Positions 2,905 to 64,000 of a DNA stretch of 64,000 nt are shown here, in pieces. The translations under genes were made by a program, and so were the position numbers. The number at the start of each line of letters is the position of its first letter. Within the stretch, counting starts at the first letter, position 1. The notes below the pieces were generated by a model that was not told the origin of the DNA, made no database searches, and was given only the letters and a program-made list of their open reading frames with translations. The DNA comes from a virus, in the IMG/VR virus record IMGVR_UViG_3300025015_000010, positions 104,735 to 168,734 of that record; one strand, written 5' to 3'.

Positions 2905-5743
2905 CTAGGTAGATTTGATTTTCGCTATGGCACCGAGACCCTGGATTACAGCCCATGGCGCGAATCGTCGGAGTGTCGTGGTTTCAAATATAAGATCATA
3001 AGTTAATCCAGCCTGGCTAGTTTTATGATTATATAGTCCCACTCTTTCGCCATTGACATATACTTCAAGGCGAGTCGTTTTATTAGATTCAAAACTGTCA
3101 ATTAGATTTTTGACTTGCTCATTAAATGTGGCTTCATCCATCAAAATTTCTCCAGTATGGCACTAATTCTGCTTTTGAACATTACAGTCGTAGACCGGGT
3201 AACAACCTTTTCAGCTTCGGCCGACCAAGCAATCTCACCCGTAGATTCTTTCTTTACGTCAGCCAACACAGCTTTGATTACCAGCCCAGTGTCCTCTATT
3301 CTCATTTTTCGACTATGAGTTCCAGCCAAAGCATCTAGCACATGAGTCAGCCTCATGGGTGTTACCCACTCGGTAGCAATGGCGTTAGCTTCTTGGAGTA
3401 CAGCCAGTGTCGCGCCTTCAACTACTTTGCGTGGCTTGGCCGTCTCTTCAAATTCAGTATTTTTGTACTTCGCTACGATTCGCTCGCCATTATTTTTTCT
3501 GATTTCAATTGGCGGTCGGAGTACATCGCCTTCGCGTATTTTGTCTTCGATAATGCTACAAAGTTAGTGTGTTTTTCTCCGCCAGAAAAGAAAGTCAACT
3601 GGCCGTCTTTCCACAAAATGTGTGCCGAAGTCCCATGGAGTTTTTCTAGAGCGTATACCTCTTTGAATAGCAATACATCCTGGTTTTTGTATAGGTTCTC
3701 GATATCAGCGTAGCCCATTTTTAGTCCTTGGTCGGGTATATAATGCCAAGAAGTTTCTGGCCAAGTTCGTGACGTACCTGGTTCTTGACGATCACGTCGT
3801 CAAAATTTGTTCTAATAAGTTCGACAGCAACTACTCCTTGGAGCAGTTTAATCGCAGCCATGATGGCGTTAGAATGATCCTCATGTAAGTTATCTTCAAA
3901 TGTTACCAGAATGCCTTTGTATCTATCAGACACTAGTTCACCTCATAGAGTAAGTTGTATACCTCAGCGTATTTCCCGCCCGTACCAACATGAATAGCAT
4001 TTTCTGTCTGCATGCGTTCGGTCATGCACCAAGCCAAAGAATTAACTATAATGTCTGATTCGACAATAGCCTTCCAGTTTTTACCATACCGTCTAGCCCA
4101 ACGAGAATCAGCCTCGATGATTAATGCATTAGCCGACTTCCAGCGTGTAAATAGCCAGTAAGAGTCTAAAATACCGTCTGACTGCTCTTTAAGATCATCA
4201 AACATGTAGCATTTGTGCAGTAACCACAGCCTAGACCATGAGGTAAATTTATTCGTATATTTAGCATATTGATATAGCATAAGTCCAGCTATGAGTAGTA
4301 AAGCCAGAGATGTATATATGCCTATAATCATGGCTCAATATCCCACAGTGGATTGTCAATATCCTGATTGTGAAATACATCGGCGTAGTGGTCTACGGAT
4401 GTTCCGATGAGTCTATACAGTTCCTGTAGCTCAGCCTTGGTCAGGGTGCCATTTTGCTGTTCTAAACTTAATTGATTAATTCCAAAACCGTGTTGCGTGG
4501 CTAAATTCAATAGTTTTTCTACGGCCCTGTTCTTTCGAAACCGCTGTACGCCGATTCCATCGATTTCGGTAATATACACCCGCCCATTCATGTTGATCGG
4601 TATAGGCATATTTTCAGATTTACAAGCCACTGTCATCTAGCTTCTCCCTGATCTGTAGACTTGCTTCAAGGTCAACCCCGAAAGTAAACTTAGCTTCTTC
4701 TATGGCCGATTGAAGCAGTTGATCGATGCTGCTTTTGAGCATTTTGGCAATGCTTTCTTTGGGCACAGTGAACATGCCTGCGGCTATGCCGGACGATGCC
4801 AATAATGATGTTGCAGCCATAAAAAGACTAGTCGCAGCTATATCTCCTAAGTTTCTCTTTTCACTTTCGGCAATGCATCTCTCCAACAGTTTATTCTGAA
4901 TTATGTTACTTTCTTTTATCAAAATAGTTGCCGCTAGATTGTAGTCTTCTTTGCTTGTTTGGTTCAAAGTTTCTCTCCAGGATCAATTATTGCAAAAATA
5001 CCAGTTAATGGGTTACCCACAGTAATGAGCAGGTCGTCTTCAGTTAGTTCCTCAAAATCCTGAATAAAAATGTGCCATGCTTGAATTTTAGTCGCGTCAG
5101 TTTCTTCTAGCACGTCGCCTAGGGTTCGTATAGTGATTGTTCCAGATCCAGATTCGATTGTGAAGCCTGGACGTCGGTTATCGATTACTGAGGCCAGGGC
5201 AAGCAGAGTATCCAGCTTAGTATAGGAGCTTTCAACCTGCTCATCGAGTATGCTGAGGGCAAATTCAGCTTCCGGCCGATCCTGTGTATCTAAGTCGCCT
5301 ATGGTAAATGCGAGTGCATCTAGCCCTTCGGTATTACCTTCCGGGTTCAATGCTCCGAATTGGTCAATGAGCGTTTCGATAAGCCATGGCATGTCCTGTG
5401 GGTAGGTGCCAGAGCCATAAAGCGGAGTTTTCCCATAGACCCCGAGATACAATGACTGTTCGGACTCCTTGTTAGATAAATCCAGTCTAGCGTTTAGGTC
5501 AGCGTCGGCCTTTTCCTTGTCAAATTTGTCTATAGGGACTTGGCAGGATACAAGTGCATACCTATAGACTGAGTTCTCGACAGTCACCTTGATAGCCAGG
5601 TCGCGGGTAGGGATGACAGTAGTTCTGTGATCAGTCGTAACCATGCTACCCAGCGCAGACGGATGCACAAAGAAATCGGGCGAGGCATAGCGCTTCCAGC
5701 GTCGGCCGAATAGGTACCAAGTTTTAGAACTTTGTTCAGACAT
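2905..5743 (-). other. Block of tightly coupled hypothetical ORFs (2905-3144, 3721-3933, 3933-4331, 4328-4636, 4620-4967, 4964-5743)
   Basis: Co-oriented with overlapping stop/start codons; no recognisable motifs. Confidence 0.65.
3141..3718 (-). pseudogene. Rnl2-like RNA ligase with internal deletion and frameshift
   Basis: Motif I EKLHGTSA in 3473..3718; after ~3555 another frame gives REGDVLRP (motif IV) and RIVAKYKN (motif V), continuous with ORF 3141..3356; motifs III/IIIa absent. Confidence 0.75.
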
Positions 5744-7768: not shown

Positions 7769-8520
7769 AACTGGCCATGCTTGTTCTAGATCAGAGTTGA
7801 TCTTCGGGTAACCATCCCGTCCCTTCGCCGTGCAGACTAAAGATATGGCATTTACATCGACCTCGCGTGTGGCACTTTTGCACTCGTCTTTCGCGTGTCG
7901 ATTTTAGACGACTAGATCAGAACTTAGTCTTGATCAGATCCACTTATTGACTGATGTTTCTGCCATAGTTTATTTCCGGCGATATCTGTCGTGAGCTACA
8001 GAGGAGAAAATTCCCAGCAAGCTTAGCTTTAACTAGTGTATGGCTAGGCTTGTTTTCCCGTGTCACAGATCTCGGCTTTGAGGCTTTTGTCGCATCGCCG
8101 TTTCTTGGAGCAGCCCGGTGGTCCATTTCTAGGTGGAGCGAACAATTTTGTGTTGCTTATCTCCGTTTTTGACACAGCACAAGAGTCTAGACTGTTGATC
8201 GCTCATGGATACGGCCAGTTGCCAGCCGCTGGACTGCACGATTTATTTGGTCAGTCAGCCTTCAAATTGTTGATAAAAATAGCTGACTGACCAAATATTT
8301 TTAACTAACCAGATAGTCTGTTCTATTTATGAGATGTATTCGTAGCAGTACCTGGTTAGTTATATTTATAGGCCAGTAGTGGTATCGGTATGCACTCTAC
8401 TTTGCGCTGGTGCTCGCCTTCAGCCTGTCTAACCGTTTTCGAGGAGAGCCGACTACTGGGATCACTACTGGCCTAGTTTTTTATAGTTTTGACTCGTTTC
8501 CGAGTCGTTTGTCTCTTATG
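7769..8520 (-). ncRNA. Candidate large structured non-coding RNA region (~750-800 nt)
   Basis: No credible ORF; starts just after a promoter; stems 8491-8506 (GAAA tetraloop on minus strand), 8369-8381/8463-8475, 8302-8312/8352-8362, 8244-8259/8282-8297, long-range 7769-7776/8213-8220. Confidence 0.6.
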
Positions 8521-52693: not shown

Positions 52694-53695
52694 TCATGCC
52701 CTCTCCAAATAAGCATTGCTCACGATTTTTAGCTTCAGTCTGCTATTCAACTCCGATTCGAATCGATTCTCAATAGGCTGAATTACGACGCCCTCGCGTA
52801 TGTGATCCGCGCCAACAATAAGAGATTTTCCGTTTGACAGCTTTTCAATATCTACTTCTGAGTATGGACCCTTGTAAACTACCTGAACCCACGGCATGCC
52901 GTGAATTATTCCAGCGGCATTCATAGCTAGTTCTGGAGAAACCCATGTCCCGTCTGGTGTTCGTACATCAAACCCTGCAAAACGTACCTCGCCCGGTTTA
53001 CATCCGTATTTCAAATCTTGAACCTGCCCGTAAACTTCGCCGTACAGTACATGGCCTGGATTAGCTTCGCAAAAAGACTTAATAGCTGGTGTAACTTCCA
53101 AGGCGCGATGCCAGATTGTGTTGCCAGTTTCCATTTTCCACTCACCATGTGATCCCACGAACATACGCAGTGTGCCAGTCTTATCAGAGGCATAAACATA
53201 TCTTGCTGACGCACCATGGATCTTTTCGGTAGCCACGACAAGTTCGTCTGGCCTGAATAGGTGCTTATAGCGATACCAGTTTTCAACATCGTACTTGGGC
53301 GCGATTACGCCCGATGGTCCAGGCCCAGTTTCGCCCCGGTGGAAGTTCACGGGTGGTTCGTAACGTTCGACGCCGAGAGCTTCTAGAGCATTTTGACCCT
53401 CAGCCATGCCTTCAGGTGACTTAACTAGCAGTCCTTGTGAGAATATGCCACGTAACTTTTTTACTTTAATTCGTTCCCGTGCTCTAGGCTTATCCTGGAT
53501 TATGAGAAACTCAAATTCTGGCCTGTCTGTAGGCACTGTATAGTCAGGTGGAATGTATGCGGCCAAGTCTCCATCCTGCCAGTCGGCAGAACGGACACAA
53601 ACTGTATAGCCAAATACTCGAACGATACTTAGAGTATCTGCGTTCGGGTGAGGCTCTTTACGTATTCGAATGACGGGTATTTCGTGAGTGCTCAC
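52694..53695 (-). CDS. RNA ligase, DRB0094 family
   Basis: HPNADTL, LRGIFSQGL, TEKIHG, GEVYG, FDV, REGVV, LKIVSNAYL. Confidence 0.9.
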   Translation of the reverse strand: MSTHEIPVIRIRKEPHPNADTLSIVRVFGYTVCVRSADWQDGDLAAYIPPDYTVPTDRPEFEFLIIQDKPRARERIKVKKLRGIFSQGLLVKSPEGMAEGQNALEALGVERYEPPVNFHRGETGPGPSGVIAPKYDVENWYRYKHLFRPDELVVATEKIHGASARYVYASDKTGTLRMFVGSHGEWKMETGNTIWHRALEVTPAIKSFCEANPGHVLYGEVYGQVQDLKYGCKPGEVRFAGFDVRTPDGTWVSPELAMNAAGIIHGMPWVQVVYKGPYSEVDIEKLSNGKSLIVGADHIREGVVIQPIENRFESELNSRLKLKIVSNAYLERA

Positions 53696-56740: not shown

Positions 56741-57338
56741 CGGGTCTTGATCTATTACTGTTATCTACTCCCCTAGCTACGCCATCCACCTCGTTCCATT
56801 CTCTGCCCAATTATTTGATCTATTACTATGTCTCGCTGGAGAAGGACTACTCGGCCAACGCCTTGGGTTCTATTCCCTACCTAGCTATTGATCTACTGCT
56901 ACCCCAGCATTCGTCCACTATGGGGGCTACCATGACACTATTCCATTCTCTGCCTAGCTCTTAATCTATTGCTACCATCGAACGCACCGTACTCTTCAAG
57001 CACGGTGGGATATTCCATTCTCTGCCTAGCTCTTAATCTATTGCTACGCCTGCTGTACGCGGCAGATGTGGTTGTCCGCCTCATTCCATTCTCTGCCTGA
57101 GTCTTGATCTATTACTGCGCAAGAAGACACCGGGGCGGATAATATTGCTGTAATCGTTCCATTCTCTGCCCGAGTCTTGATCTATTACTGCGTCAACGTG
57201 GGAGGGAAGAAATAATGGCACTCCATGCGTTCCATTCTCTGCCCGAGTCTTGATCTATTACTGCGGCCCCGGAACAAGCGATCAGTATCTGGCCGGTCGA
57301 GAGTTCCATTCTCTGCCCGAGTCTTGATCTATTACTGC
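56741..57338 (-). CRISPR. CRISPR array: 8 full repeats + 1 partial, 8 spacers
   Basis: 36-nt repeat, minus-strand consensus GCAGTAATAGATCAAGACTCGGGCAGAGAATGGAAC; plus-strand starts at 57303, 57229, 57156, 57083, 57012, 56940, 56867, 56793 (37 nt) and partial 56741; spacers 38, 37, 37, 35, 36, 37, 37, 31 nt; degeneration increases away from the cas gene. Confidence 0.97.
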
Positions 57339-59026
57339 CCCGCCTCAACTAAATCCTTTATTCCTAACTTGTTACATGGCTTCTTGCGAGGGCTTGGCTT
57401 TTCTATCTTAAGACTGCCGTTTAGTTCCTTGTCCCTTAGCTCTGGCAATCGCTCTGTAACGAACCTCTCGCATAGAATTCTTACAGAAGCTTCTGTCCAG
57501 TTGCATTGGTGGGCACACTTGGGGCAAATAAACAAGCCCTGTCGTCGAGATTCTTTATAATCTCGATGGTCCAGTTCAGTCAGATTTTTCTTGTAGCATA
57601 GAAATTTACATTCGGGACACGTGTCTGTAATAGCCATTCCAGATTGAATTAGTTCCCCACAACCTATAGCCTTTCCTTTGTAGTCCAAATCAAAAGCCAG
57701 TCGTCCATAGTCCCACGTAGATAATACCCGATTAGCTTGTCTTATTGCCCTTTGTGCCGGGGCACTCAGACCTTTGCAAAGATTTTTTCTGGCTTTCAAA
57801 AGCCAGGCTTTTCCCTCGCCAGGGTCGTGAAAAACCATTCTTGCTCCAGCGTCACCCGCCCAATCAACTAGCTGTTTAGACGTGGCATGAGCTACTGATC
57901 GCTCATCTGGAGCGGATGGACAACGCCGTCCAGCAGACTGAGCGTGCTTTGCTCTTTCTACCCACCGTTCGTGTGGGATCATATGTTCCATAGTTGGATA
58001 TCTGCGTACTTCAACAACCCCTTTACCCTTGTCCCACAATGCCGCTGTCGCATAAGGGTAAATATCCGGTACTACAAACAACAATCGATTCCACCCTAAA
58101 GTTGTTGGAGCATTAAATTTAAATGATATCCTTGCTTGCCAACGTCGTGGGGAGATTTCTTGAAGGCGTACATCGCCATAAAAAGCCCCAGAATCTAAGT
58201 ATTCTTTCGCATAATCCTGCTTCACAACAAGGGGTAAACGTAACCAACCCTTTGCATATTTTGTGATAGGGCCAGCTGCTTTATTGGTCTGTTGATAAGT
58301 TGACCAAGGTGTAACCACGCTATTGCCTTCATGGCCAGTCTGCACTGCAAGACACCAATGTCTCGCATTTTCAGGATCGCGTAGAATTCTGGCATGAATG
58401 GAGCCAGTAAATAACAGTTCTCTGTTGTGTTTTCGTGGGTTCGCTGCGGACGCCGCTTTTGCTAGTCTACTTCTTGCCCCGTTTAGTCGATGTCCTTGTA
58501 GACTAGTAGACTGGCTTATAGATTCTAGGGTATCCAACCATACTTTTTCAGCTTCAAGTAAACAAATACACGGCGAAGGGAAAGCAGGCGCACCTGTCAT
58601 TCGGCTACCAGATGGAATACGTTGCCCTTCAGCTTCAATTTTTTGTTGCCACTCCCACCGTTTCGTAGCTTGCTTATGGCCTGTTATGATTGAAGCGACT
58701 CGAAAAAACATGGACTCGGCCAGAGACGACGGTAAGTTTTCAGGCACAGGCGCAACAAGGCGTATAGCTGAGTAGATCGTTTGAGTTCCTCCAGGCATGT
58801 CAAGTAATTTTGCAGATTTTACCGTCCGTGCATTCTCAGGTCCAGTTCTGTAGTTAATTGGATCATCGATATGTTCTGATAGGTAATTCAAGGCATTCGT
58901 AATGCCTCGCTGCCATAAATCTGCCAAGTCTTCTAGCCCTCGACGAGCACGACGATCTACCCGAATACCAAAGGCTGGAGCGCGAACAAGGATATCACCG
59001 GCCTCAAAGTCTTTACGCTTTCCCAT
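57332..59026 (-). CDS. cas12: TnpB/Cas12-like type V effector (564 aa) with apparently inactivated RuvC
   Basis: Abuts the array; GGAGG SD before ATG 59026; C-terminal RuvC-like layout LLFVVPDI / AHATSKQLVDWA / MVFHDP / WDYGRLAFDLDYKG / TCPEC...FICPKC / NWTEASVRIL. Confidence 0.75.
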   Translation of the reverse strand: MGKRKDFEAGDILVRAPAFGIRVDRRARRGLEDLADLWQRGITNALNYLSEHIDDPINYRTGPENARTVKSAKLLDMPGGTQTIYSAIRLVAPVPENLPSSLAESMFFRVASIITGHKQATKRWEWQQKIEAEGQRIPSGSRMTGAPAFPSPCICLLEAEKVWLDTLESISQSTSLQGHRLNGARSRLAKAASAANPRKHNRELLFTGSIHARILRDPENARHWCLAVQTGHEGNSVVTPWSTYQQTNKAAGPITKYAKGWLRLPLVVKQDYAKEYLDSGAFYGDVRLQEISPRRWQARISFKFNAPTTLGWNRLLFVVPDIYPYATAALWDKGKGVVEVRRYPTMEHMIPHERWVERAKHAQSAGRRCPSAPDERSVAHATSKQLVDWAGDAGARMVFHDPGEGKAWLLKARKNLCKGLSAPAQRAIRQANRVLSTWDYGRLAFDLDYKGKAIGCGELIQSGMAITDTCPECKFLCYKKNLTELDHRDYKESRRQGLFICPKCAHQCNWTEASVRILCERFVTERLPELRDKELNGSLKIEKPSPRKKPCNKLGIKDLVEAGQ

Positions 59027-59028
59027 TC

Positions 59029-59547
59029 CTACCTCCGGTTCACCACTTGAAATGTCTCTCCACAATTAGGACAGTGAACCTTAAAACTATTAGTAACAAT
59101 CCGTTTTTCTAGTGGTTGCTCAGTTGGGGCAAGCGCTGGCAGAAATACATCATCCAGTTCTCTGGGCTTCATATCAATAGGCTTCACTTTTACATTTGCA
59201 TATTCCCCATTACTAGTGGGGCGTCGCACTTGGTACTCCTGGTCTAATACTGCGTCGCTTACGCCCCCGCGTAACATTCGGCCTACGGCTCTTAACGCAC
59301 GGTCAGGCGAGCCCCAGGCGAGAGATGCAAACCGAGGATTAGCCGCGAGAGAGATAAGACGATCTGCACGAGATCTAGTTAAGCCAATTTCCTTGAGAAA
59401 ACGGTCATAAATTGGCAGAACTTGCTGTTGCACTCGACCCAGTAACTTCCCATATGCAATAAGATCCGTTGTGAGATTTACATTCAATGTTTGCCATGCG
59501 GCTAATGCCTCTTCTAAACTGAGATTACTTTCTTTGACTGTGCTCAT
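59029..59547 (-). CDS. DUF3102-like helical/HTH protein with C-terminal CxxC knuckle, coupled to the cas12-like gene
   Basis: LIAYGKLL..V......YDRFLKEIGLTRSRADRLISLA; VHCPNCGETF; stop 2 nt before the next ATG. Confidence 0.6.
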   Translation of the reverse strand: MSTVKESNLSLEEALAAWQTLNVNLTTDLIAYGKLLGRVQQQVLPIYDRFLKEIGLTRSRADRLISLAANPRFASLAWGSPDRALRAVGRMLRGGVSDAVLDQEYQVRRPTSNGEYANVKVKPIDMKPRELDDVFLPALAPTEQPLEKRIVTNSFKVHCPNCGETFQVVNRR

Positions 59548-59582: not shown

Positions 59583-59745
59583 ATAACTGGCCCGGAAAAC
59601 TGCTTGCTCGTGACACTGTCTCGGCAGCGAGCATAGATACGGGTCGTGAGTGCCGTTATCCGCTGAGCGTAACCAGATCGGTCCAGCGGCACCCCGGCTC
59701 ACGCGGTGGAACGCCGCGCATTTTTGTTCTTTCCGGGCCAGTTAT
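59583..59745 (-). ncRNA. 163-nt structured RNA (candidate tracr/scaffold RNA)
   Basis: 16-bp perfect closing stem 59583-59598/59730-59745; internal stems tgctcg/cgagca, gtgag/ctcac, ccgctg/cagcgg, cgcgg/ccgcg; starts at the predicted TSS. Confidence 0.65.
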
Positions 59746-59754
59746 CTGCTAACT

Positions 59755-59783
59755 AGCATACACCTACCAAACAACAAAGTCAA
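59755..59783 (-). promoter_or_regulatory. sigma70-like promoter of the ncRNA-DUF3102-cas12-array unit
   Basis: TTGACT-N17-TATGCT. Confidence 0.8.
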
Positions 59784-60796
59784 CAACTTTCTTTTGACAA
59801 AATCCAACCAGCTTTTATCATATCAGCCAACACGGCATAACAGACGTAAGCCCGGCCTGTACGAGACAGAGCATGAAACCTGTAATCAGTCACTAAAGCA
59901 TCATACATATCTCGCTGACTTTCAGGCAGGCTGTCTCTGGCCGCTTGAAACTTTGATGCCTTCTGTACAACTGGCTCGACTTCAAATGTCTTCACAGTCT
60001 TGGGCTCTTTTTGATGACTTATCCTTACTTCTGGAAAATACTTATACTTTTTTCTGAGTTTTAGTGGCGGAATAACTATGCCTGTCTTGATACAGTAGCT
60101 CCGTAAACGTGCGACCGACTCTCCAACCTCTCTGGCCACGTGGGCGACGGGCTTATTCCAGAGTAAATCTGTTAGTACCTCTCTATCTGGCCAGGCGCCC
60201 TCCTCCAAAGTTGTCAGCCATCGTGTTTGGCGCGATGCTATAGGAATATCCGAGGTGTGACAGTAACTTTTCAAGGTATTTATTGATATGCCGAGAGACT
60301 TTGCTACGTGCTTGGGCGACCGCTCTTGAAGCATCTTTGTCAGAGTAGACGCCTCGGGCCATTCTATTTTTACCCTGTTCCAGTGCTCAATACCAGCTAG
60401 CGTTATTCGCTTTTCGCTCTTAGAATTAGGCGAGGCGACCTTGGGCTTCTTGTCTCGTTTCTTCGCGCTTGGCTTACGCTCTTGTTCAACCTTTCTTGCA
60501 TAGGGCGTGGCTAGAACCAAGTTACCAATATCGATATTTGTCTTATTACGGTCTATATAGCTGACGTTCTCGTCTCTACTCAAATACCTGCCTATGTCAT
60601 TTTCCATCACAAGTACGGCCCAGTAAACCATACCAGAGTTATCAAGGGCTCGCGGATGTTCTGGATAATATGCCGCTATCGAGCCCTTAAATTTTTCAGG
60701 CTTTAACTTCGACAAGTCATGTACAGTTAGGTCGGTTTCGCTGACATACTCCCCGGAATAAATTCCGGGGCTTGCGGTCGCTGGTCCCATCGTCAT
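59780..60796 (-). CDS. Degenerate HNH-like N-terminus plus repeated HTH motifs
   Basis: HPRA..GMVY..VLVME..IGRYL...ENV.YIDRNK.N...NL; VAKSLGISINTL; VAREVGES; true start uncertain. Confidence 0.55.
   Translation of the reverse strand: MTMGPATASPGIYSGEYVSETDLTVHDLSKLKPEKFKGSIAAYYPEHPRALDNSGMVYWAVLVMENDIGRYLSRDENVSYIDRNKTNIDIGNLVLATPYARKVEQERKPSAKKRDKKPKVASPNSKSEKRITLAGIEHWNRVKIEWPEASTLTKMLQERSPKHVAKSLGISINTLKSYCHTSDIPIASRQTRWLTTLEEGAWPDREVLTDLLWNKPVAHVAREVGESVARLRSYCIKTGIVIPPLKLRKKYKYFPEVRISHQKEPKTVKTFEVEPVVQKASKFQAARDSLPESQRDMYDALVTDYRFHALSRTGRAYVCYAVLADMIKAGWILSKESC
60742..60795 (-). mobile_element. IS200/IS605-type right-end remnant
   Basis: CAAGCCCCGGAATTTATTCCGGGGAGTATGTCA: hairpin followed by GTCA; 30-nt arm identical to the 49221 palindrome. 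Confidence 0.6.
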
Positions 60797-60803
60797 CTAC
60801 ACC

Positions 60804-63725
60804 TCAAACATAAGGGTCATTGGCCGTGTTATTTCTACGTTGCCAGTCGTTTCGTTCGTTCACTATCCGCTCATCTCGCTTTAAAGCTGCCTTGGCTAGG
60901 GCCGTACTTGCAGACGGGTCGGAAATAATGTCTGCTAAGAACGAATTCAAAAGATTGATTCTTAAGGTGTAATAGTCGGAATCATCCATAAACTCTTACC
61001 TTGTACGGGTGCAGCAGCCCTAATAATATTGGCCCAAATGTGCCTCCAGTCGGGTCCATCTCGCCTTTCAGTGTTCCAGACGTACTAACACCGTAAAAAC
61101 TGGCCATAATGCTGTCTTCAGGAAAATTAATTAGTAGCTCAACGTCTGCAAAATTCCAATGCAAGTCGATACTTCCATCTGAGCAGGGACCAATTTTGGG
61201 TATACGCGGCACTACCTTCAGATCATTCAAAGCTACACTGTTAAGACTTCTTAAAAACGCGATTGCTCTGTTCCAAGTTACTTGTTCAACTGACTTAAAA
61301 TCTTCTACAGCGATAGTCAATATCCTCTTGGACCTTTCGATGACATCTTCTAAGTCATTTGTTATATGACCGCAGCCCAAGCAGCCTATTCCTGACAAAG
61401 AAAAGTATGTGTCTGTTGATTGGCACTTCAAGCACGGCCCGCTAGTATAGGATGGATTGACCCTAGGCGGTCTCGAATAATGTTCGTGGAAAAATCCCAT
61501 ACCCATATTAAGTTTTACCTTTCTTTCGTCGAGGCTTTATACCCGAAAGTAAGAGTTTCGCCCGCCTTATCAGCCGCTTCTGCCAACTTACCGAGGTCTA
61601 TGTCAGTAAACAGTCCGACTGGAGCGCTGACTAGTGTTTGGCCATTAGACATTCTAGATATTGAAGCCGATATAGGAACGCCATGCAAGATGTCTGAAAT
61701 ATAGCCGCATGAGGGCGGACCCGGCTGCCATGGATCACGATTTAACTCTTGTCGCAAAGGCCAAAACCAAAGTAGCATTAGCTTGTCTCCTTACTAAAGA
61801 TCGAATCAAACTTTACTTTCCAACGTTCTTTAAACTCAAGTCCATAGCACTCAAATATGGCCTCTTCCAATCTGGACCGAACTGTTTTAGGCTTCCAGCC
61901 AGCAGTTAAGGCATCTGAAACAAAGTGCATCCAAGACGGCATTAGGCCATGTTTCTCGCACTGAATGAATAAATCTGGCAAAGGCAATCCACAGGTATCA
62001 TACATTCTGAACACACCCGCTATGACCGTTTTGCCGTCTTCGGTCTTGCCAATTATTTTGAATTTGGGTTCGGCCATTTTAATCGCTAACAGTAGGAGCT
62101 AGATGCTTCTTGATAACCCTGACAGCGCTGTCTACTGTATCGGCCTTGCCTATAAGAGCGTGGGTATCGTCGTGTCCCGGTATGTCCGCTCCTGTGAACA
62201 GACTAATATCGTAAAGATACAAGTCTTCGGCACTTTTTACACTCCATACGATGTAATTGTCCAAGTTTTCTGGCTCGATAGTTACGATGATCTCACCGAA
62301 ACGCTTGTTGTAGGTTATCTGGTACCCTTTGCCCAATGAATCGTGCAGCGCGACAAGAGTCTGTTGGATATTCTTACTACTAGGCTTGTCTATCATACTG
62401 GCTCTGTGCCCTCCAACCAACGAACCTTCTTTCCATTACGTCTTGCATAAGCGACTTCGTTTTTCGTACTGTCCCCAAGGTAGCCTCCGACGTTCAACAC
62501 TAAGATTTCGTCCGCCAAGTCAATCTTACGCAGATGAAGCTGGTCTAACTCACCTCCAGTCGGTTTGTCATCAGAACGAGCGCCGCTGTGAGAAAGGACA
62601 ATACGGCCAGCCAGTGTTTCGCTTAAGTATGTCGCCCGCTCTGTGTATCTATAGTCTTGCGATAGGTCTCCAATGCTTGTTTTAATCTTTTGCCTTCTGT
62701 ACTGTTACCAACGGCTGAGCACACAAAAATATCCGCTGCCTCTGAGAGCCTGTTTGCAGCTACTCCACGTGCCTCGTAGAAGTCCCTAATCGAGATATAG
62801 GCCGAAACGGCTTCATGAATCTCATCAATTGTTCCGTGCATGATAGCCTTGCACAGAACTACTTCGCGGTCTCGTAATTTAGGCCGCGGATGAGAATGAT
62901 CAATCATAGCTCTCGGTTATTTTCATAATAAGGGTCACGGACGATGTAATCTCTGTGTTCTCTATTTTTGCGGACACCTGTCTCATCTCTACTCCAGACA
63001 ACTTAAATGAGCCTGGTCTACTCTGCAAACAAGCCGACACAGGTAGACTTAGTACAAACTTACCTTCAGCTAAATTAGCCAATATGTCTATGGGAGTATC
63101 CGGTAAAGCCACAACTTGAAATCCCTCTAGCTTGTATTGACCAGACATTAAGAAACGTTGACCCGTTAAGCCATCACAAAGATTATCCCAGAAACTGGTG
63201 GCAAAGAAATCTGTACCAGGCACCTGAGTGTCGTAAAAATACTGCTGAGTTTCTAGCAAGCTGTCTCCGGTTTTTTCAATCCTCGAACTATTCGGCATAG
63301 GCCGAAGCTATTCTAGCCTCAGTTTTCTTAATACGGAGAATGATATCATTTGTATAATCGGCTGGCCTTTCCCCGTATTGCCCGAAACCGAGTTCCTTCA
63401 TGCGATTGTGTTGCCAGCTAGAAACCAACCGATCCATCTGCTCCCTGCCATCTCCACGAATCCGAGTTACTGGCACTGAATCGCCCATCTTCAGTGCTGG
63501 CTTGCCAAAGCATGTGGTTTCTTCAACATCTGGCAAAGGGTAAGCAGATACTTCAGCCCACGTATTTAAGGATTTGCGGACCTTGGCCAGTTCGTTTTCC
63601 AGCCGTCGCAGTGTCCTTGTAGAGTTGAGCACAGAAAGCGCCCGCTTTGCTAAAGGTAACTCAGCGTCCGATTCTTTGATGCTCCCGCCGTTAACGGCGG
63701 GATTCTGGTTATCTAACTCGCGCAT
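60804..63725 (-). other. Block of hypothetical ORFs (60804-60989, 60982-61506, 61515-61778, 61778-62077, 62079-~62396, 62623-62907, 62900-63298, 63288-63725)
   Basis: Co-oriented and coupled; 61778-62077 has VFRMYDTCGLP, resembling an AlaRS-like helical fragment. Confidence 0.6.
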
Positions 63726-64000
63726 AGCGCTCGTTCCTTCCCAGCATAGGGTCCACCAATATGCCCCAACGATACCACACTGAGGATATCGCTACGGGTG
63801 CCACTCACTACCTTGGCACCGCGTCTTCCAATGTTAAATGCCGCGTTTGCGTCGCGATGCTCCTTGTGATTGCATCTCGAACACAGGTACTTTTTACCCT
63901 TTGGTTTGTGGATCTTCCCGCACTTACAACATTCTTGACTCGTATACGCTGGGTCAACGAATATGACGGGTACGCCGCGCAAGGCAGCTTTGTACATAAT
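63713..64000 (-). CDS. tnpB: TnpB (IS200/IS605 RNA-guided nuclease), C-terminal part; gene runs off the window
   Basis: YKA...GVPVIFVDPAYTSQECCKCG...YLCSRCNHKEHRDANAAFNI with intact RuvC-III Asp. Confidence 0.9.
   Translation of the reverse strand: MMYKAALRGVPVIFVDPAYTSQECCKCGKIHKPKGKKYLCSRCNHKEHRDANAAFNIGRRGAKVVSGTRSDILSVVSLGHIGGPYAGKERALCAS

What the first reader, a model, noticed from the sequence alone, without database searches (positions are those of the whole stretch)
59583..59745. Promoter-proximal 163-nt RNA with a perfect 16-bp closing stem and a possible anti-repeat
The stem begins about 10 nt after the -10 box and is followed by a U-rich tract. The minus-strand segment GUAUCUAUGCUCGCUGCCGAG (59640-59620) can pair imperfectly with the conserved 3' half of the repeat (CUCGGGCAGAGAAUGGAAC). 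The repeat itself has only a 3-bp hairpin, consistent with needing a tracr/scout RNA as in Cas12f/Cas12k. Alternative: it is one of several similar phage ncRNAs and unrelated to the array.
Basis: partly seen in the sequence, partly recalled or inferred. Interest (0 to 1): 0.75.

Follow-up and report, generated by a model that had tools for sequence, protein, structure and literature searches.

The report
Conserved RNA heading phage Cas12f-like operon

Summary
The object is real. A sigma-70-like promoter is followed 9 nt later by a 163-nt RNA (59745-59583, minus strand). Its ends form a perfect 16-bp stem (17 bp with one G-U) around three inner helices.

The same promoter must also drive a 172-aa zinc-ribbon ORF, a 564-aa remote Cas12f/TnpB-like ORF, and an array of 8 repeats plus a partial ninth.

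The protein family is an orphan: one homologue among 1.8 billion representatives. That homologue's operon (L008) starts with the same architecture. A covariance model built only from the window's RNA finds it there as the top hit, on the gene-sense strand; an antisense control model does not.

No second copy exists in the 168-kb phage record, so "one of several phage ncRNAs" fails.

The proposed anti-repeat (59640-59620) lies partly in inner helix P4, and 32% of shuffled RNAs have an equally good site.

A better candidate is the 7-nt loop of the first hairpin. Its GUUCCA is an exact complement of the last six repeat bases (p about 0.01-0.03). This matches the short guide-proximal pseudoknot of known Cas12 tracrRNAs.

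L008 shows a possibly covarying partner at its contig end, but this is unverified.

Most likely reading (about 50%): a tracr/scout-like scaffold RNA excised from the operon leader. Main rival: a cis-acting leader.

The parts
59755..59783 (-). Sigma-70-like promoter of the operon: -35 TTGACT at 59783-59778, 17-nt spacer, -10 TATGCT at 59760-59755.
   Evidence: 9 of 12 matches. The equivalent site in L008 is TTGACA-17-TACAAT, 11 of 12 matches and the only hit in 3.4 kb. No other convincing minus-strand promoter and no minus-strand terminator lies between here and the array.
59583..59745 (-). 163-nt structured RNA with four helices: P1 (closing stem), P2, P3 and P4.
   Evidence: z = -4.2. Model R1, built from this RNA alone, finds L008:147-328(+) at 15.5 bits, E about 0.01, covering model positions 3-161. 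The antisense control model R2 finds nothing there. No Rfam family matches.
59729..59745 (-). P1 5' arm (RNA nt 1-17).
   Evidence: It pairs with 59583-59599: 16 Watson-Crick pairs plus one G-U.
59583..59599 (-). P1 3' arm (RNA nt 147-163), followed by a U-rich run and, 35 nt later, the accessory ORF start.
   Evidence: In L008 the equivalent stem is 25 bp with an unrelated sequence.
59701..59719 (-). P2 hairpin: 6-bp stem and 7-nt loop (loop 59713-59707). GUUCCA at 59712-59707 is the candidate short anti-repeat ('dock') for the last six repeat bases, UGGAAC.
   Evidence: mean unpaired probability 0.83. Chance of such a 6-mer: 0.028 anywhere in the RNA, 0.011 in its first 60 nt. L008 has a 6-bp stem with three compensatory pairs and a 7-nt loop, CCUCCCA.
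59629..59700 (-). P3, a long irregular central domain. Its apex (59679-59666) is the best candidate for a bulged long anti-repeat against repeat positions 1-13.
   Evidence: The whole two-part duplex scores -25.3 kcal/mol, which is only p = 0.04-0.07 against shuffles. The L008 apex carries a 44-nt insertion.
59602..59628 (-). P4 hairpin with a bulged A, a 3-bp tip and a triloop.
   Evidence: L008 has the same shape, with an A-U to G-C change in the tip.
59029..59547 (-). 172-aa accessory ORF of unknown family with a C-terminal CxxC motif. The true start is most likely 59547, not the 201-aa call that starts at 59634 inside the RNA.
   Evidence: Homology to P0005 (33% identity) and P0006 (73%) begins near this start. 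No Pfam, PHROG or PDB family was found.
57332..59026 (-). 564-aa remote Cas12f/TnpB-like effector (P0003).
   Evidence: PADLOC Cas12f/Cas14b models: E = 7e-4 for P0003 and 1.8e-6 for its homologue P0004. Weak Pfam Cas12f1-like TNB domain match. Cas12g RuvC C-terminal match in PDB, E = 0.008. hhalign to the phage's own TnpB, E = 1.5e-4. ESM Atlas TnpB-like fold, TM 0.59-0.64. Only one homologue among 1.84 billion representatives.
56744..57338 (-). CRISPR array: 8 repeats of 36-37 nt plus a partial ninth, with spacers of 32-38 nt. Repeat 1 overlaps the effector's stop codon.
   Evidence: Repeat positions 3-15 and 22-36 are conserved and 16-21 are variable. Distal repeats are degenerate, which fits minus-strand transcription.

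Best explanation
The 163-nt element is the first part of the operon transcript. It most likely acts as the effector's scaffold RNA: a tracrRNA/scoutRNA-like partner of the crRNAs.

Proposed mechanism:
1. One promoter (59783-59755) transcribes the RNA, the accessory ORF, the Cas12f-like ORF and the array as one unit. The co-linear layout is shown; co-transcription is inferred from the absence of internal promoters or terminators.
2. The long closing stem P1 brings the 5' and 3' ends of the RNA together. It probably serves as a double-strand processing or stability module, for example an RNase III site like those that excise rRNAs, releasing a compact P2-P3-P4 core from the mRNA (inferred).
3. 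The core binds the Cas12f-like protein (inferred from family habits).
4. The 7-nt loop of P2 pairs through GUUCCA with the last six bases of each repeat (UGGAAC). This would form the short guide-proximal pseudoknot helix common to TnpB and Cas12 guide RNAs. The complementarity is shown; the pairing is inferred.
5. A second, bulged contact with the conserved 5' part of the repeat is possible but not supported statistically.
For: 1. The structure is conserved where the genes are conserved. In L008, the only homologous operon, a near-consensus promoter is followed by an RNA with a 25-bp closing stem, a 6-bp/7-nt-loop first hairpin, a long middle domain and a bulged-A triloop hairpin, then the accessory-gene homologue.
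2. A model built from the window RNA alone picks that element as the top hit: 15.5 bits, E about 0.01, full length, gene-sense strand. The antisense model finds nothing there.
3. In the model-fitted alignment, 47 of 49 comparable pairs are kept and 21 have changes on both sides. That alignment leans towards the structure.
4. Primary sequence is not significantly similar, so it is the fold that is retained.
5. A helper RNA is needed: the repeat is non-palindromic and folds at only -2.3 kcal/mol. PMC10097598 links non-palindromic repeats to tracrRNA-dependent Cas12 systems.
6. The effector's best matches are Cas12f/Cas14b models, and Cas12f relies on tracrRNA (PMC11246509).
7. No other anti-repeat candidate exists: the longest non-array match to the repeat in 168 kb is 12 nt.
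8. The P2 loop is exactly complementary to the six guide-proximal repeat bases and is accessible, with unpaired probability 0.83. The chance is 0.028 anywhere in the RNA and 0.011 in its first 60 nt.
9. [quoted passage not shown] TnpB, Cas12c2 and Cas12p pair the last 3-5 repeat or scaffold bases with a 5'-proximal tracr segment (PMC10097598, PMC9522604, 10.1101/2025.01.20.633832).
10. Possible covariation: the L008 loop is CCUCCCA, and the first 24 nt of that contig end in AGAGAUGGGAG. This resembles the conserved repeat end in the window and differs at exactly the two positions that restore pairing with L008's loop. The post-hoc chance is 3e-4.
11. Its 163 nt lie within the size range of Cas12p tracrRNAs: 118 nt resolved, 185 nt used (10.1101/2025.01.20.633832).
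Against:
- No extended anti-repeat exists. The best two-part duplex reaches only p = 0.04-0.07, two accessible 6-mers give p = 0.04, and RNAcofold keeps the RNA closed.
- Both ends of the RNA are locked in a long stem, unlike described tracrRNAs, whose 3' anti-repeat is free.
- L008 has no array in the 4.5 kb downstream of its effector.
- L008's repeat-like 5' end is only 24 nt. It could equally be the tail of an upstream ORF, and scans of viral contigs found no array with that repeat end.
- Only two sequences carry the structure, so covariation statistics are thin and partly fitted.
- The RNA is necessarily also the 5' leader of the mRNA, so a purely cis role cannot be excluded.
Confidence: 0.5

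Rival explanations
1. It is a cis-acting 5' leader of the operon mRNA. A 5'-terminal long stem would protect the transcript from 5'-end-dependent decay, or provide an RNase III or protein-binding site for autoregulation by the accessory protein or the effector. In this reading it plays no part in guide RNA formation.
For: - The RNA starts within a few bases of the predicted transcription start in both loci.
- No promoter lies between it and the ORFs, so it is physically the mRNA leader.
- L008 keeps the RNA without an adjacent array.
- Repeat complementarity is statistically marginal.
Against: - A plain stabiliser needs only a terminal hairpin, not three conserved inner helices with a size-conserved 7-nt loop.
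- No loop-to-RBS pairing is shared by the two loci (direct reading of the leaders).
- It leaves the non-palindromic repeat of a Cas12f-like system without any helper RNA in 168 kb.
Confidence: 0.25
2. One reading: a classical tracrRNA whose anti-repeat is 59640-59620, pairing with repeat positions 18-36.
For: An 8-bp GC-rich match with one bulge exists, and the local duplex is -15.6 kcal/mol.
Against: - 32% of shuffled RNAs of the same composition have an equal or better site.
- The strongest, GC-rich part of the segment is the 5' arm of conserved helix P4, with low accessibility of 0.15-0.34.
- It uses repeat positions 18-21, which vary, including an indel, among repeats of the same array.
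Confidence: 0.07
3. It is an array-independent RNA partner of the effector: an omega-RNA-like complete guide or a regulatory or decoy RNA. It would work in L008 without any CRISPR array, and the array in the window would be a later addition.
For: - The RNA, accessory gene and effector are conserved together while the array is not seen in L008.
- The effector is close to the TnpB/Cas12f boundary.
Against: - The RNA sits at the 5' end of the operon, not overlapping the 3' end of the nuclease gene.
- Both its ends are buried in P1, so there is no obvious free guide segment.
- The sequences flanking P1 are unrelated in the two loci.
- L008 is a 7.4-kb fragment that ends 90 nt upstream of the promoter.
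Confidence: 0.1
4. The functional transcript is on the plus strand: an antisense RNA ending at the terminator-like hairpin 59702-59718 plus its T run.
For: - The plus strand folds even better in the window: -80.1 kcal/mol, z = -5.6.
- The scan calls a plus-strand terminator-like site at 59702-59718, and a weak plus-strand promoter lies at 59491-59520.
Against: - The antisense model does not recover the L008 element on either strand, while the sense model does.
- In L008 the sense strand folds better and its P1 holds four G-U pairs that would be A-C mismatches in antisense.
- The T run is absent in L008.
- Termination at that site would exclude the 3' arm of P1.
Confidence: 0.04

Closest known systems
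tracrRNA of type V-F (Cas12f1/Cas14) and related Cas12b/g/l systems
   Same: - A structured multi-stem RNA of roughly 120-190 nt encoded in the cas12 locus.
- A non-palindromic repeat.
[quoted passage not shown] Here this would be the 6-bp complementarity of the P2 loop.
- The effector's best profile hits are Cas12f/Cas14b.
   Different: - No statistically supported long anti-repeat.
- The RNA is the operon's 5' leader, and its two ends are closed by a 17-25 bp stem.
- The dock lies in a hairpin loop.
- The effector falls far below the curated Cas12f thresholds.
Cas12p ('Cas12 hacker') tracrRNA of phage origin (bioRxiv 10.1101/2025.01.20.633832)
   Same: - A phage-borne effector of 500-700 aa close to TnpB.
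- A 37-nt repeat and a large tracrRNA.
- A pseudoknot between the last four repeat bases (AAAC) and a 5'-proximal tracr segment. The window's repeat also ends in AAC and pairs with a 5'-proximal segment.
   Different: No Cas12p chain appeared among the PDB sequence matches, where only Cas12g did. No thioredoxin link is evident. This locus has an accessory ORF and a closing stem.
scoutRNA/tracrRNA of Cas12c and Cas12d (Harrington et al. 2020, as described in PMC9522604)
   Same: Short, discontinuous complementarity of 3-5 nt 'docks' to the repeat instead of one long duplex. The last four repeat bases form a pseudoknot with the helper RNA.
   Different: Those effectors are much larger and unrelated in sequence. 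Those scoutRNAs are shorter; the tracr-derived part of the Cas12c2 guide is 71 nt (PMC9522604).
TnpB omega-RNA (PMC10097598)
   Same: A guide-pseudoknot-stem layout, a multi-stem scaffold of about 116 nt, and a small TnpB-like protein.
   Different: The omega-RNA overlaps the 3' end of tnpB and carries its guide at its own 3' end. Here the RNA is at the 5' end of the operon, has no free 3' end, and a separate array supplies the guides.
Processing stems that flank rRNAs and phage early RNAs (RNase III substrates); from general knowledge, not tested here
   Same: A long, near-perfect duplex formed by sequences flanking a structured RNA, whose sequence drifts freely while the pairing is kept (17 bp here, 25 bp in L008).
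   Different: Cleavage has not been shown, and 17 bp is at the short end for RNase III.

Membership tests
Type V tracrRNA (Cas12b/f/g/l kind) | Encoded within or beside a cas12 locus that has a CRISPR array. | tested here: met
   The layout is promoter, RNA, accessory ORF, Cas12f-like ORF, array, all on one strand.
Type V tracrRNA (Cas12b/f/g/l kind) | Long, often bulged anti-repeat complementary to the repeat. | tested here: not met
   The best candidate is 12 bp with two bulges (repeat positions 1-13 with RNA nt 67-80), inside the P3 apex. The whole duplex gives p = 0.04-0.07. RNAcofold predicts no intermolecular pairs. No match longer than 12 nt exists in the 168-kb genome.
Type V tracrRNA (Cas12b/f/g/l kind) | Short 5-7 bp anti-repeat pairing with the guide-proximal end of the repeat (pseudoknot). 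| tested here: met
   GUUCCA (59712-59707, P2 loop, unpaired probability 0.83) is the exact complement of repeat positions 31-36. The chance is 0.011-0.028. Only complementarity is shown, not pairing.
Type V tracrRNA (Cas12b/f/g/l kind) | Anti-repeat covaries with the repeat in homologous loci. | tested here: inconclusive
   The L008 loop CCUCCCA matches UGGGAG at L008:19-24, which is preceded by a repeat-like AGAGA (post-hoc p = 3e-4). The contig ends there and no array could be confirmed.
Type V tracrRNA (Cas12b/f/g/l kind) | Expressed as a discrete small RNA that binds the effector and is needed for crRNA maturation or interference. | not testable with these tools
scoutRNA (Cas12c/d) | Only 3-5 nt docks complementary to repeat anchors; associated with Cas12c/d effectors. 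| tested here: inconclusive
   Short docks are present. The effector, however, resembles Cas12f/TnpB rather than Cas12c/d.
TnpB omega-RNA | Overlaps or follows the 3' end of the nuclease gene and carries the guide at its own 3' end. | tested here: not met
   The RNA lies 5' of the operon, about 0.5 kb upstream of the nuclease start. Its 3' end is paired in P1.
Cas12f (type V-F) effector, for the neighbouring protein | Passes curated Cas12f/TnpB family models and has the canonical RuvC D-E-D triad plus a zinc ribbon. | tested here: inconclusive
   - PADLOC Cas12f: E = 7e-4 for P0003 and 1.8e-6 for P0004.
- NCBIfam TnpB and Cas12f2: about 15 bits against cut-offs of 100 and 450.
- Pfam TNB domain: below its cut-off.
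- Acidic residues are kept at all three RuvC positions but in a non-canonical form: D321, D401, and E512 (D in P0004).
- The AF2 model was unusable, pLDDT 36.
Any Rfam family | Reaches a family's gathering score. | tested here: not met
   No match in the 64-kb window. The best sub-threshold hit over the element was 21.7 bits against a gathering score of 71, on the wrong strand.
Rho-independent terminator or attenuator | Compact GC-rich hairpin immediately followed by a conserved U tract. | tested here: not met
   The scan calls no minus-strand terminator here. The 'loop' would be 131 nt, and L008 has no U tract after its stem.

The most novel reading that the evidence does not exclude
The RNA, the 172-aa zinc-ribbon protein and the orphan Cas12f-like protein form a new phage-borne type V subtype. 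In it the helper RNA is cut out of the operon's own 5' leader by a long end-to-end stem. It then contacts crRNAs mainly through a 6-bp loop-to-repeat kissing helix rather than a long anti-repeat. In relatives such as L008 the same RNA-protein core may work without an adjacent array.
Probability: 0.2. Interest if true: 0.75.

Novelty: new variant of a known kind. Interest (0 to 1): 0.55.

Why it matters
- The effector family has only two full-length members among about 15 billion predicted proteins, and both are preceded by the same folded RNA. If that RNA is the helper, the whole working unit (promoter, RNA, two ORFs, array) fits in about 3 kb. It could then be rebuilt as a compact RNA-guided tool.
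- It would add a layout not yet described for type V systems: a leader-encoded, stem-closed helper RNA with a loop dock.
- It would also give one more datapoint on how a single omega-RNA split into tracrRNA and crRNA.
- If it is only an mRNA leader, the system would be a Cas12f-like effector using a non-palindromic repeat without a tracrRNA, which would itself be unusual.

Tried and rejected
- **More homologous loci.** The exhaustive HMMER search gave one homologue and the word-index search gave only self. Pattern scans for the effector and the accessory protein in viral, metagenome and genome contigs all came back empty.
- **A third accessory homologue.** P0006 (73% identical) sits on an 873-bp ENA contig that should include the RNA, but its DNA could not be delivered.
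- **Repeat-based scans of viral contigs.** One hit was a chance match inside a structural gene (L016). One was an unrelated 34-nt tandem repeat (L018). One scan found nothing.
- **Spacer targets.** None were found in phage or plasmid records. Spacer 1 had no match in viral or genome contigs, and there was no match of more than 15 nt in the phage itself.
- **AlphaFold2 of the effector.** With a 2-row alignment the model was unusable (pLDDT 36), so no fold search was run.
- **MAFFT alignment of the two RNAs.** It was meaningless, and local alignment was not above shuffles. A covariance model was used instead.
- **Searching the assembly that holds L008.** That record is not held.
- **Intramolecular partners for the P2 loop.** Short matches lie on opposite sides of P3 in the two RNAs, so no shared internal pseudoknot was found (sequences).
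- **Loop-to-RBS pairing.** It is not shared by the two loci.
- **Retron-like ncRNA.** Considered because of the flanking inverted repeats. Rejected because no Pfam reverse-transcriptase domain was found in the ORFs searched: accessory, effector, and the ORFs on either side of the operon.
- **The accessory protein.** No family was found in Pfam, PHROGs, PDB or NCBIfam. The Atlas gives only viral hypothetical clusters, with DUF3102 at 0.89, which is a lead only.

Full report
**What is in the sequence**

On the minus strand, a promoter-like site (TTGACT, 17-nt spacer, TATGCT; 59783-59755) is followed 9 nt later by a 163-nt element, 59745-59583.
- Its first and last 16 nt are perfectly complementary (pair I10). 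One G-U extends this to 17 bp.
- The element folds at -70.5 kcal/mol, z = -4.2, and none of 200 shuffles folds as well.
- The minimum-energy fold has four helices:
  - P1, the closing stem.
  - P2, a 6-bp hairpin with a 7-nt loop.
  - P3, a long irregular central domain.
  - P4, a hairpin with a bulged A, a 3-bp tip and a triloop.
- After P1 comes a modest U-rich run. The start codon of a 172-aa ORF (59547-59029) lies 35 nt after the stem.
- That ORF's stop lies just before the ATG of a 564-aa ORF (59026-57332).
- The stop codon of the 564-aa ORF lies inside the first repeat of a CRISPR array.
- Tandem Repeats Finder reported 3.5 copies. Reading on shows 8 repeats of 36-37 nt and a partial ninth (57338-56744), with spacers of 32-38 nt.
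- Repeat positions 3-15 and 22-36 are kept across the array. Positions 16-21 vary and include an indel.
- No convincing internal promoter and no minus-strand terminator was found between the RNA and the array, so one transcript is the simplest reading.
- Gene callers start the first ORF at 59634, inside the RNA. Homology with two relatives begins near 59547, so the RNA region is non-coding.

**Where it comes from and what the proteins are**

- The window is the last 64 kb of a 168.7-kb virus record. Identical copies occur on Rifle groundwater metagenome contigs.
- The 564-aa protein has no Pfam or PHROG family at normal thresholds.
- It does resemble TnpB/Cas12f in several independent ways:
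  - PADLOC Cas12f/Cas14b models, E = 7e-4 for it and 1.8e-6 for its homologue.
  - A weak Cas12f1-like TNB domain match.
  - A match to the C-terminal RuvC/zinc-ribbon part of Cas12g in PDB, E = 0.008.
  - hhalign to the phage's own TnpB, E = 1.5e-4.
  - ESM Atlas feature and structure matches to TnpB-like clusters, score 0.97 and TM 0.59-0.64.
The alignments instead keep an acidic residue at each RuvC position: D321, D401, and E512 (D in the homologue). "Dead" is therefore not established.
- The family is an orphan. An exhaustive HMMER pass over 1.84 billion representatives found one other member, P0004, 38% identical.

**The homologous locus**

P0004 lies on a 7.4-kb NCBI contig, L008.
- A near-consensus promoter (TTGACA-17-TACAAT), the only such hit in 3.4 kb, is followed 14 nt later by a 206-nt element.
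- That element has a 25-bp closing stem and folds at -112.6 kcal/mol for the 226-nt stretch L008:125-350, z = -5.6.
- Next come a homologue of the 172-aa ORF (33% identity), two small ORFs, and P0004.
- The inner fold has the same order of parts: a 6-bp hairpin with a 7-nt loop directly after P1, a long middle domain, and a bulged-A hairpin with a 3-bp tip and triloop just before the 3' arm of P1.
- Primary sequence is not significantly similar.

Objective test of shared structure:
- A covariance model was built from the window RNA alone with its MFE structure (R1) and searched against all of L008 with filters off.
- The top hit was L008:147-328 on the gene-sense strand, 15.5 bits, E about 0.01, spanning model positions 3-161. 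The next hits scored 8 bits or less.
- A control model of the antisense strand (R2) found nothing at that place on either strand.
- In the model-fitted alignment, 47 of 49 comparable pairs are standard pairs in L008 and 21 have changes on both sides. This count leans towards the model, and there are only two sequences.
- R1 finds no second copy in the 168-kb phage record. No Rfam family fits.

The element is therefore a conserved, strand-specific, structured RNA specific to this operon type. It is not a generic phage RNA.

**The anti-repeat question**

- Its GC-rich core is the 5' arm of P4, with unpaired probability 0.15-0.34.
- It needs repeat positions 18-21, which are the variable ones.
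- RNAcofold leaves the RNA closed and forms no intermolecular pair.
- No match to the repeat longer than 12 nt exists outside the array anywhere in the 168-kb record. A classical long anti-repeat is absent from this phage.
- The RNAduplex optimum (-25.3 kcal/mol) is two-part:
  - Repeat positions 31-36 (UGGAAC, next to the spacer) with GUUCCA in the P2 loop.
  - Repeat positions 1-13 with RNA nt 67-80 (12 bp, two bulges).
  - As a whole it is only marginal, p = 0.04-0.07.
- The two exact 6-mers that fall in accessible regions give p = 0.04.
- The loop dock taken alone is a narrower, literature-motivated hypothesis:
  - In TnpB, Cas12c2 and Cas12p, the last 3-5 bases before the guide pair with a 5'-proximal segment of the scaffold (PMC10097598, PMC9522604, 10.1101/2025.01.20.633832).
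  - The chance of an exact complement of the last six repeat bases is 0.028 anywhere in such an RNA and 0.011 in its first 60 nt.
- PMC10097598 also ties non-palindromic repeats to tracrRNA-dependent systems, and this repeat folds at only -2.3 kcal/mol.

**Possible covariation**

- L008's P2 loop reads CCUCCCA, against CGUUCCA in the window. Five of seven bases are shared.
- L008 has no array in the 4.5 kb after its effector.
- The contig starts only about 90 nt upstream of the promoter, and its first 24 nt end in AGAGAUGGGAG.
- This resembles the conserved end of the window's repeat. It differs at exactly the two positions that would restore six Watson-Crick pairs with L008's loop; RNAduplex finds 7 bp there.
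- Under a Markov model, a dock preceded by this repeat-like string occurs in 3e-4 of random upstream regions.
- The pattern was defined after seeing it. The 24 nt could also be the tail of an ORF.
- Assemblies do break inside arrays: the Logan contigs of the window's own locus stop 30 nt into repeat 1.
- A search of viral contigs for arrays with this repeat end gave only an unrelated tandem repeat.
- This is treated as a lead, not as evidence of record.

**Mechanism proposed**

The RNA is made as the 5' end of the operon transcript, a step that follows from the layout.
- *P1.* Its sequence differs completely between the two loci while its length and pairing are kept (17 and 25 bp). It most likely acts as a double-stranded processing or stability module that defines the RNA's ends. 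RNase III cleavage, as at rRNA flanking stems, is the obvious candidate (inferred).
- *The core.* The P2-P3-P4 core would bind the Cas12f-like protein.
- *The dock.* The P2 loop would dock onto the spacer-proximal end of each repeat, giving the guide-pseudoknot-stem layout common to TnpB and Cas12 RNAs (inferred).
- *The accessory protein.* Its role is unknown.

Probabilities:
- Scaffold RNA as proposed: about 0.5.
- Purely cis-acting leader (stabiliser or autoregulatory site): 0.25.
- Array-independent partner RNA: 0.1.
- A plus-strand antisense RNA: 0.04.

On the plus-strand option: the plus strand folds better in the window and has a terminator-like hairpin plus T run. These features are not conserved, and the antisense model fails in L008.

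**Comparison and novelty**

- The closest known things are Cas12f1-type tracrRNAs and the phage Cas12p tracrRNA, with a scoutRNA-like reliance on short docks.
- It fails the long anti-repeat criterion.
- It differs in being leader-encoded and closed end to end.
- It is classed as a new variant of a known kind, attached to an orphan effector family.
- The scan's other notes on this window (e1-5729713 and neighbours) describe the same locus. Nothing like it was found in other genomes of the scan.

Noticed in passing
window 56744-57338: The array is longer than the 3.5 copies Tandem Repeats Finder reports. It has 8 repeats plus a partial ninth, with increasingly degenerate distal repeats, and repeat 1 overlaps the effector's stop codon. 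One population variant (L004) lacks 21 nt spanning the end of repeat 7 and the start of its spacer (about 56857-56875).
   Followed up: partly
window 59634 vs 59547: Public gene calls give a 201-aa ORF that starts inside the structured RNA. Homologues P0005 and P0006 align only from the ATG at 59547, so the 172-aa form is the likely product.
   Followed up: yes
window 59702-59718 (+) and 59794-59821 (+): On the plus strand, the complement of P2 plus the A-rich linker reads as a terminator-like hairpin with a T run. A strong promoter-like site (TTGACA-16-TATCAT, 11 of 12 matches) sits back to back with the operon promoter and points into the HNH-like gene in antisense.
   Followed up: partly
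window 57332-59026 (P0003 residues 321, 401, 512): The effector keeps acidic residues at all three RuvC positions but in unusual contexts (PDIYP, FHDPG, WTEAS). The homologue has D at the third position.
   Followed up: partly
window 63713-64000 (-), continuing beyond the window (L001:193-1314): The phage also carries an ordinary 373-aa TnpB with a Cas12f1-like TNB domain and a canonical RuvC-III motif, about 4 kb upstream of the operon.
   Followed up: partly
window 59780-60796 (-): A 338-aa ORF directly upstream of the promoter matches HNH endonuclease PHROGs (E = 1e-7). Its stop overlaps the -35 box.
   Followed up: no
L008:944-1292 and 2919-3344: In the homologous locus, two small ORFs (60 and 57 aa) lie between the accessory gene and the effector. 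A basic 141-aa ORF overlaps the effector's end where the window has its array.
   Followed up: no
window 8244-8475: A cluster of three adjacent inverted repeats (16-22-nt arms, 22-63 nt apart) in an AT-rich stretch. It is unrelated to the RNA studied here by the covariance-model search.
   Followed up: no
window 52694-53695 (-): A 333-aa ORF carries an RNA ligase domain (PF09414, PF21189) according to the precomputed calls for the identical contigs.
   Followed up: no
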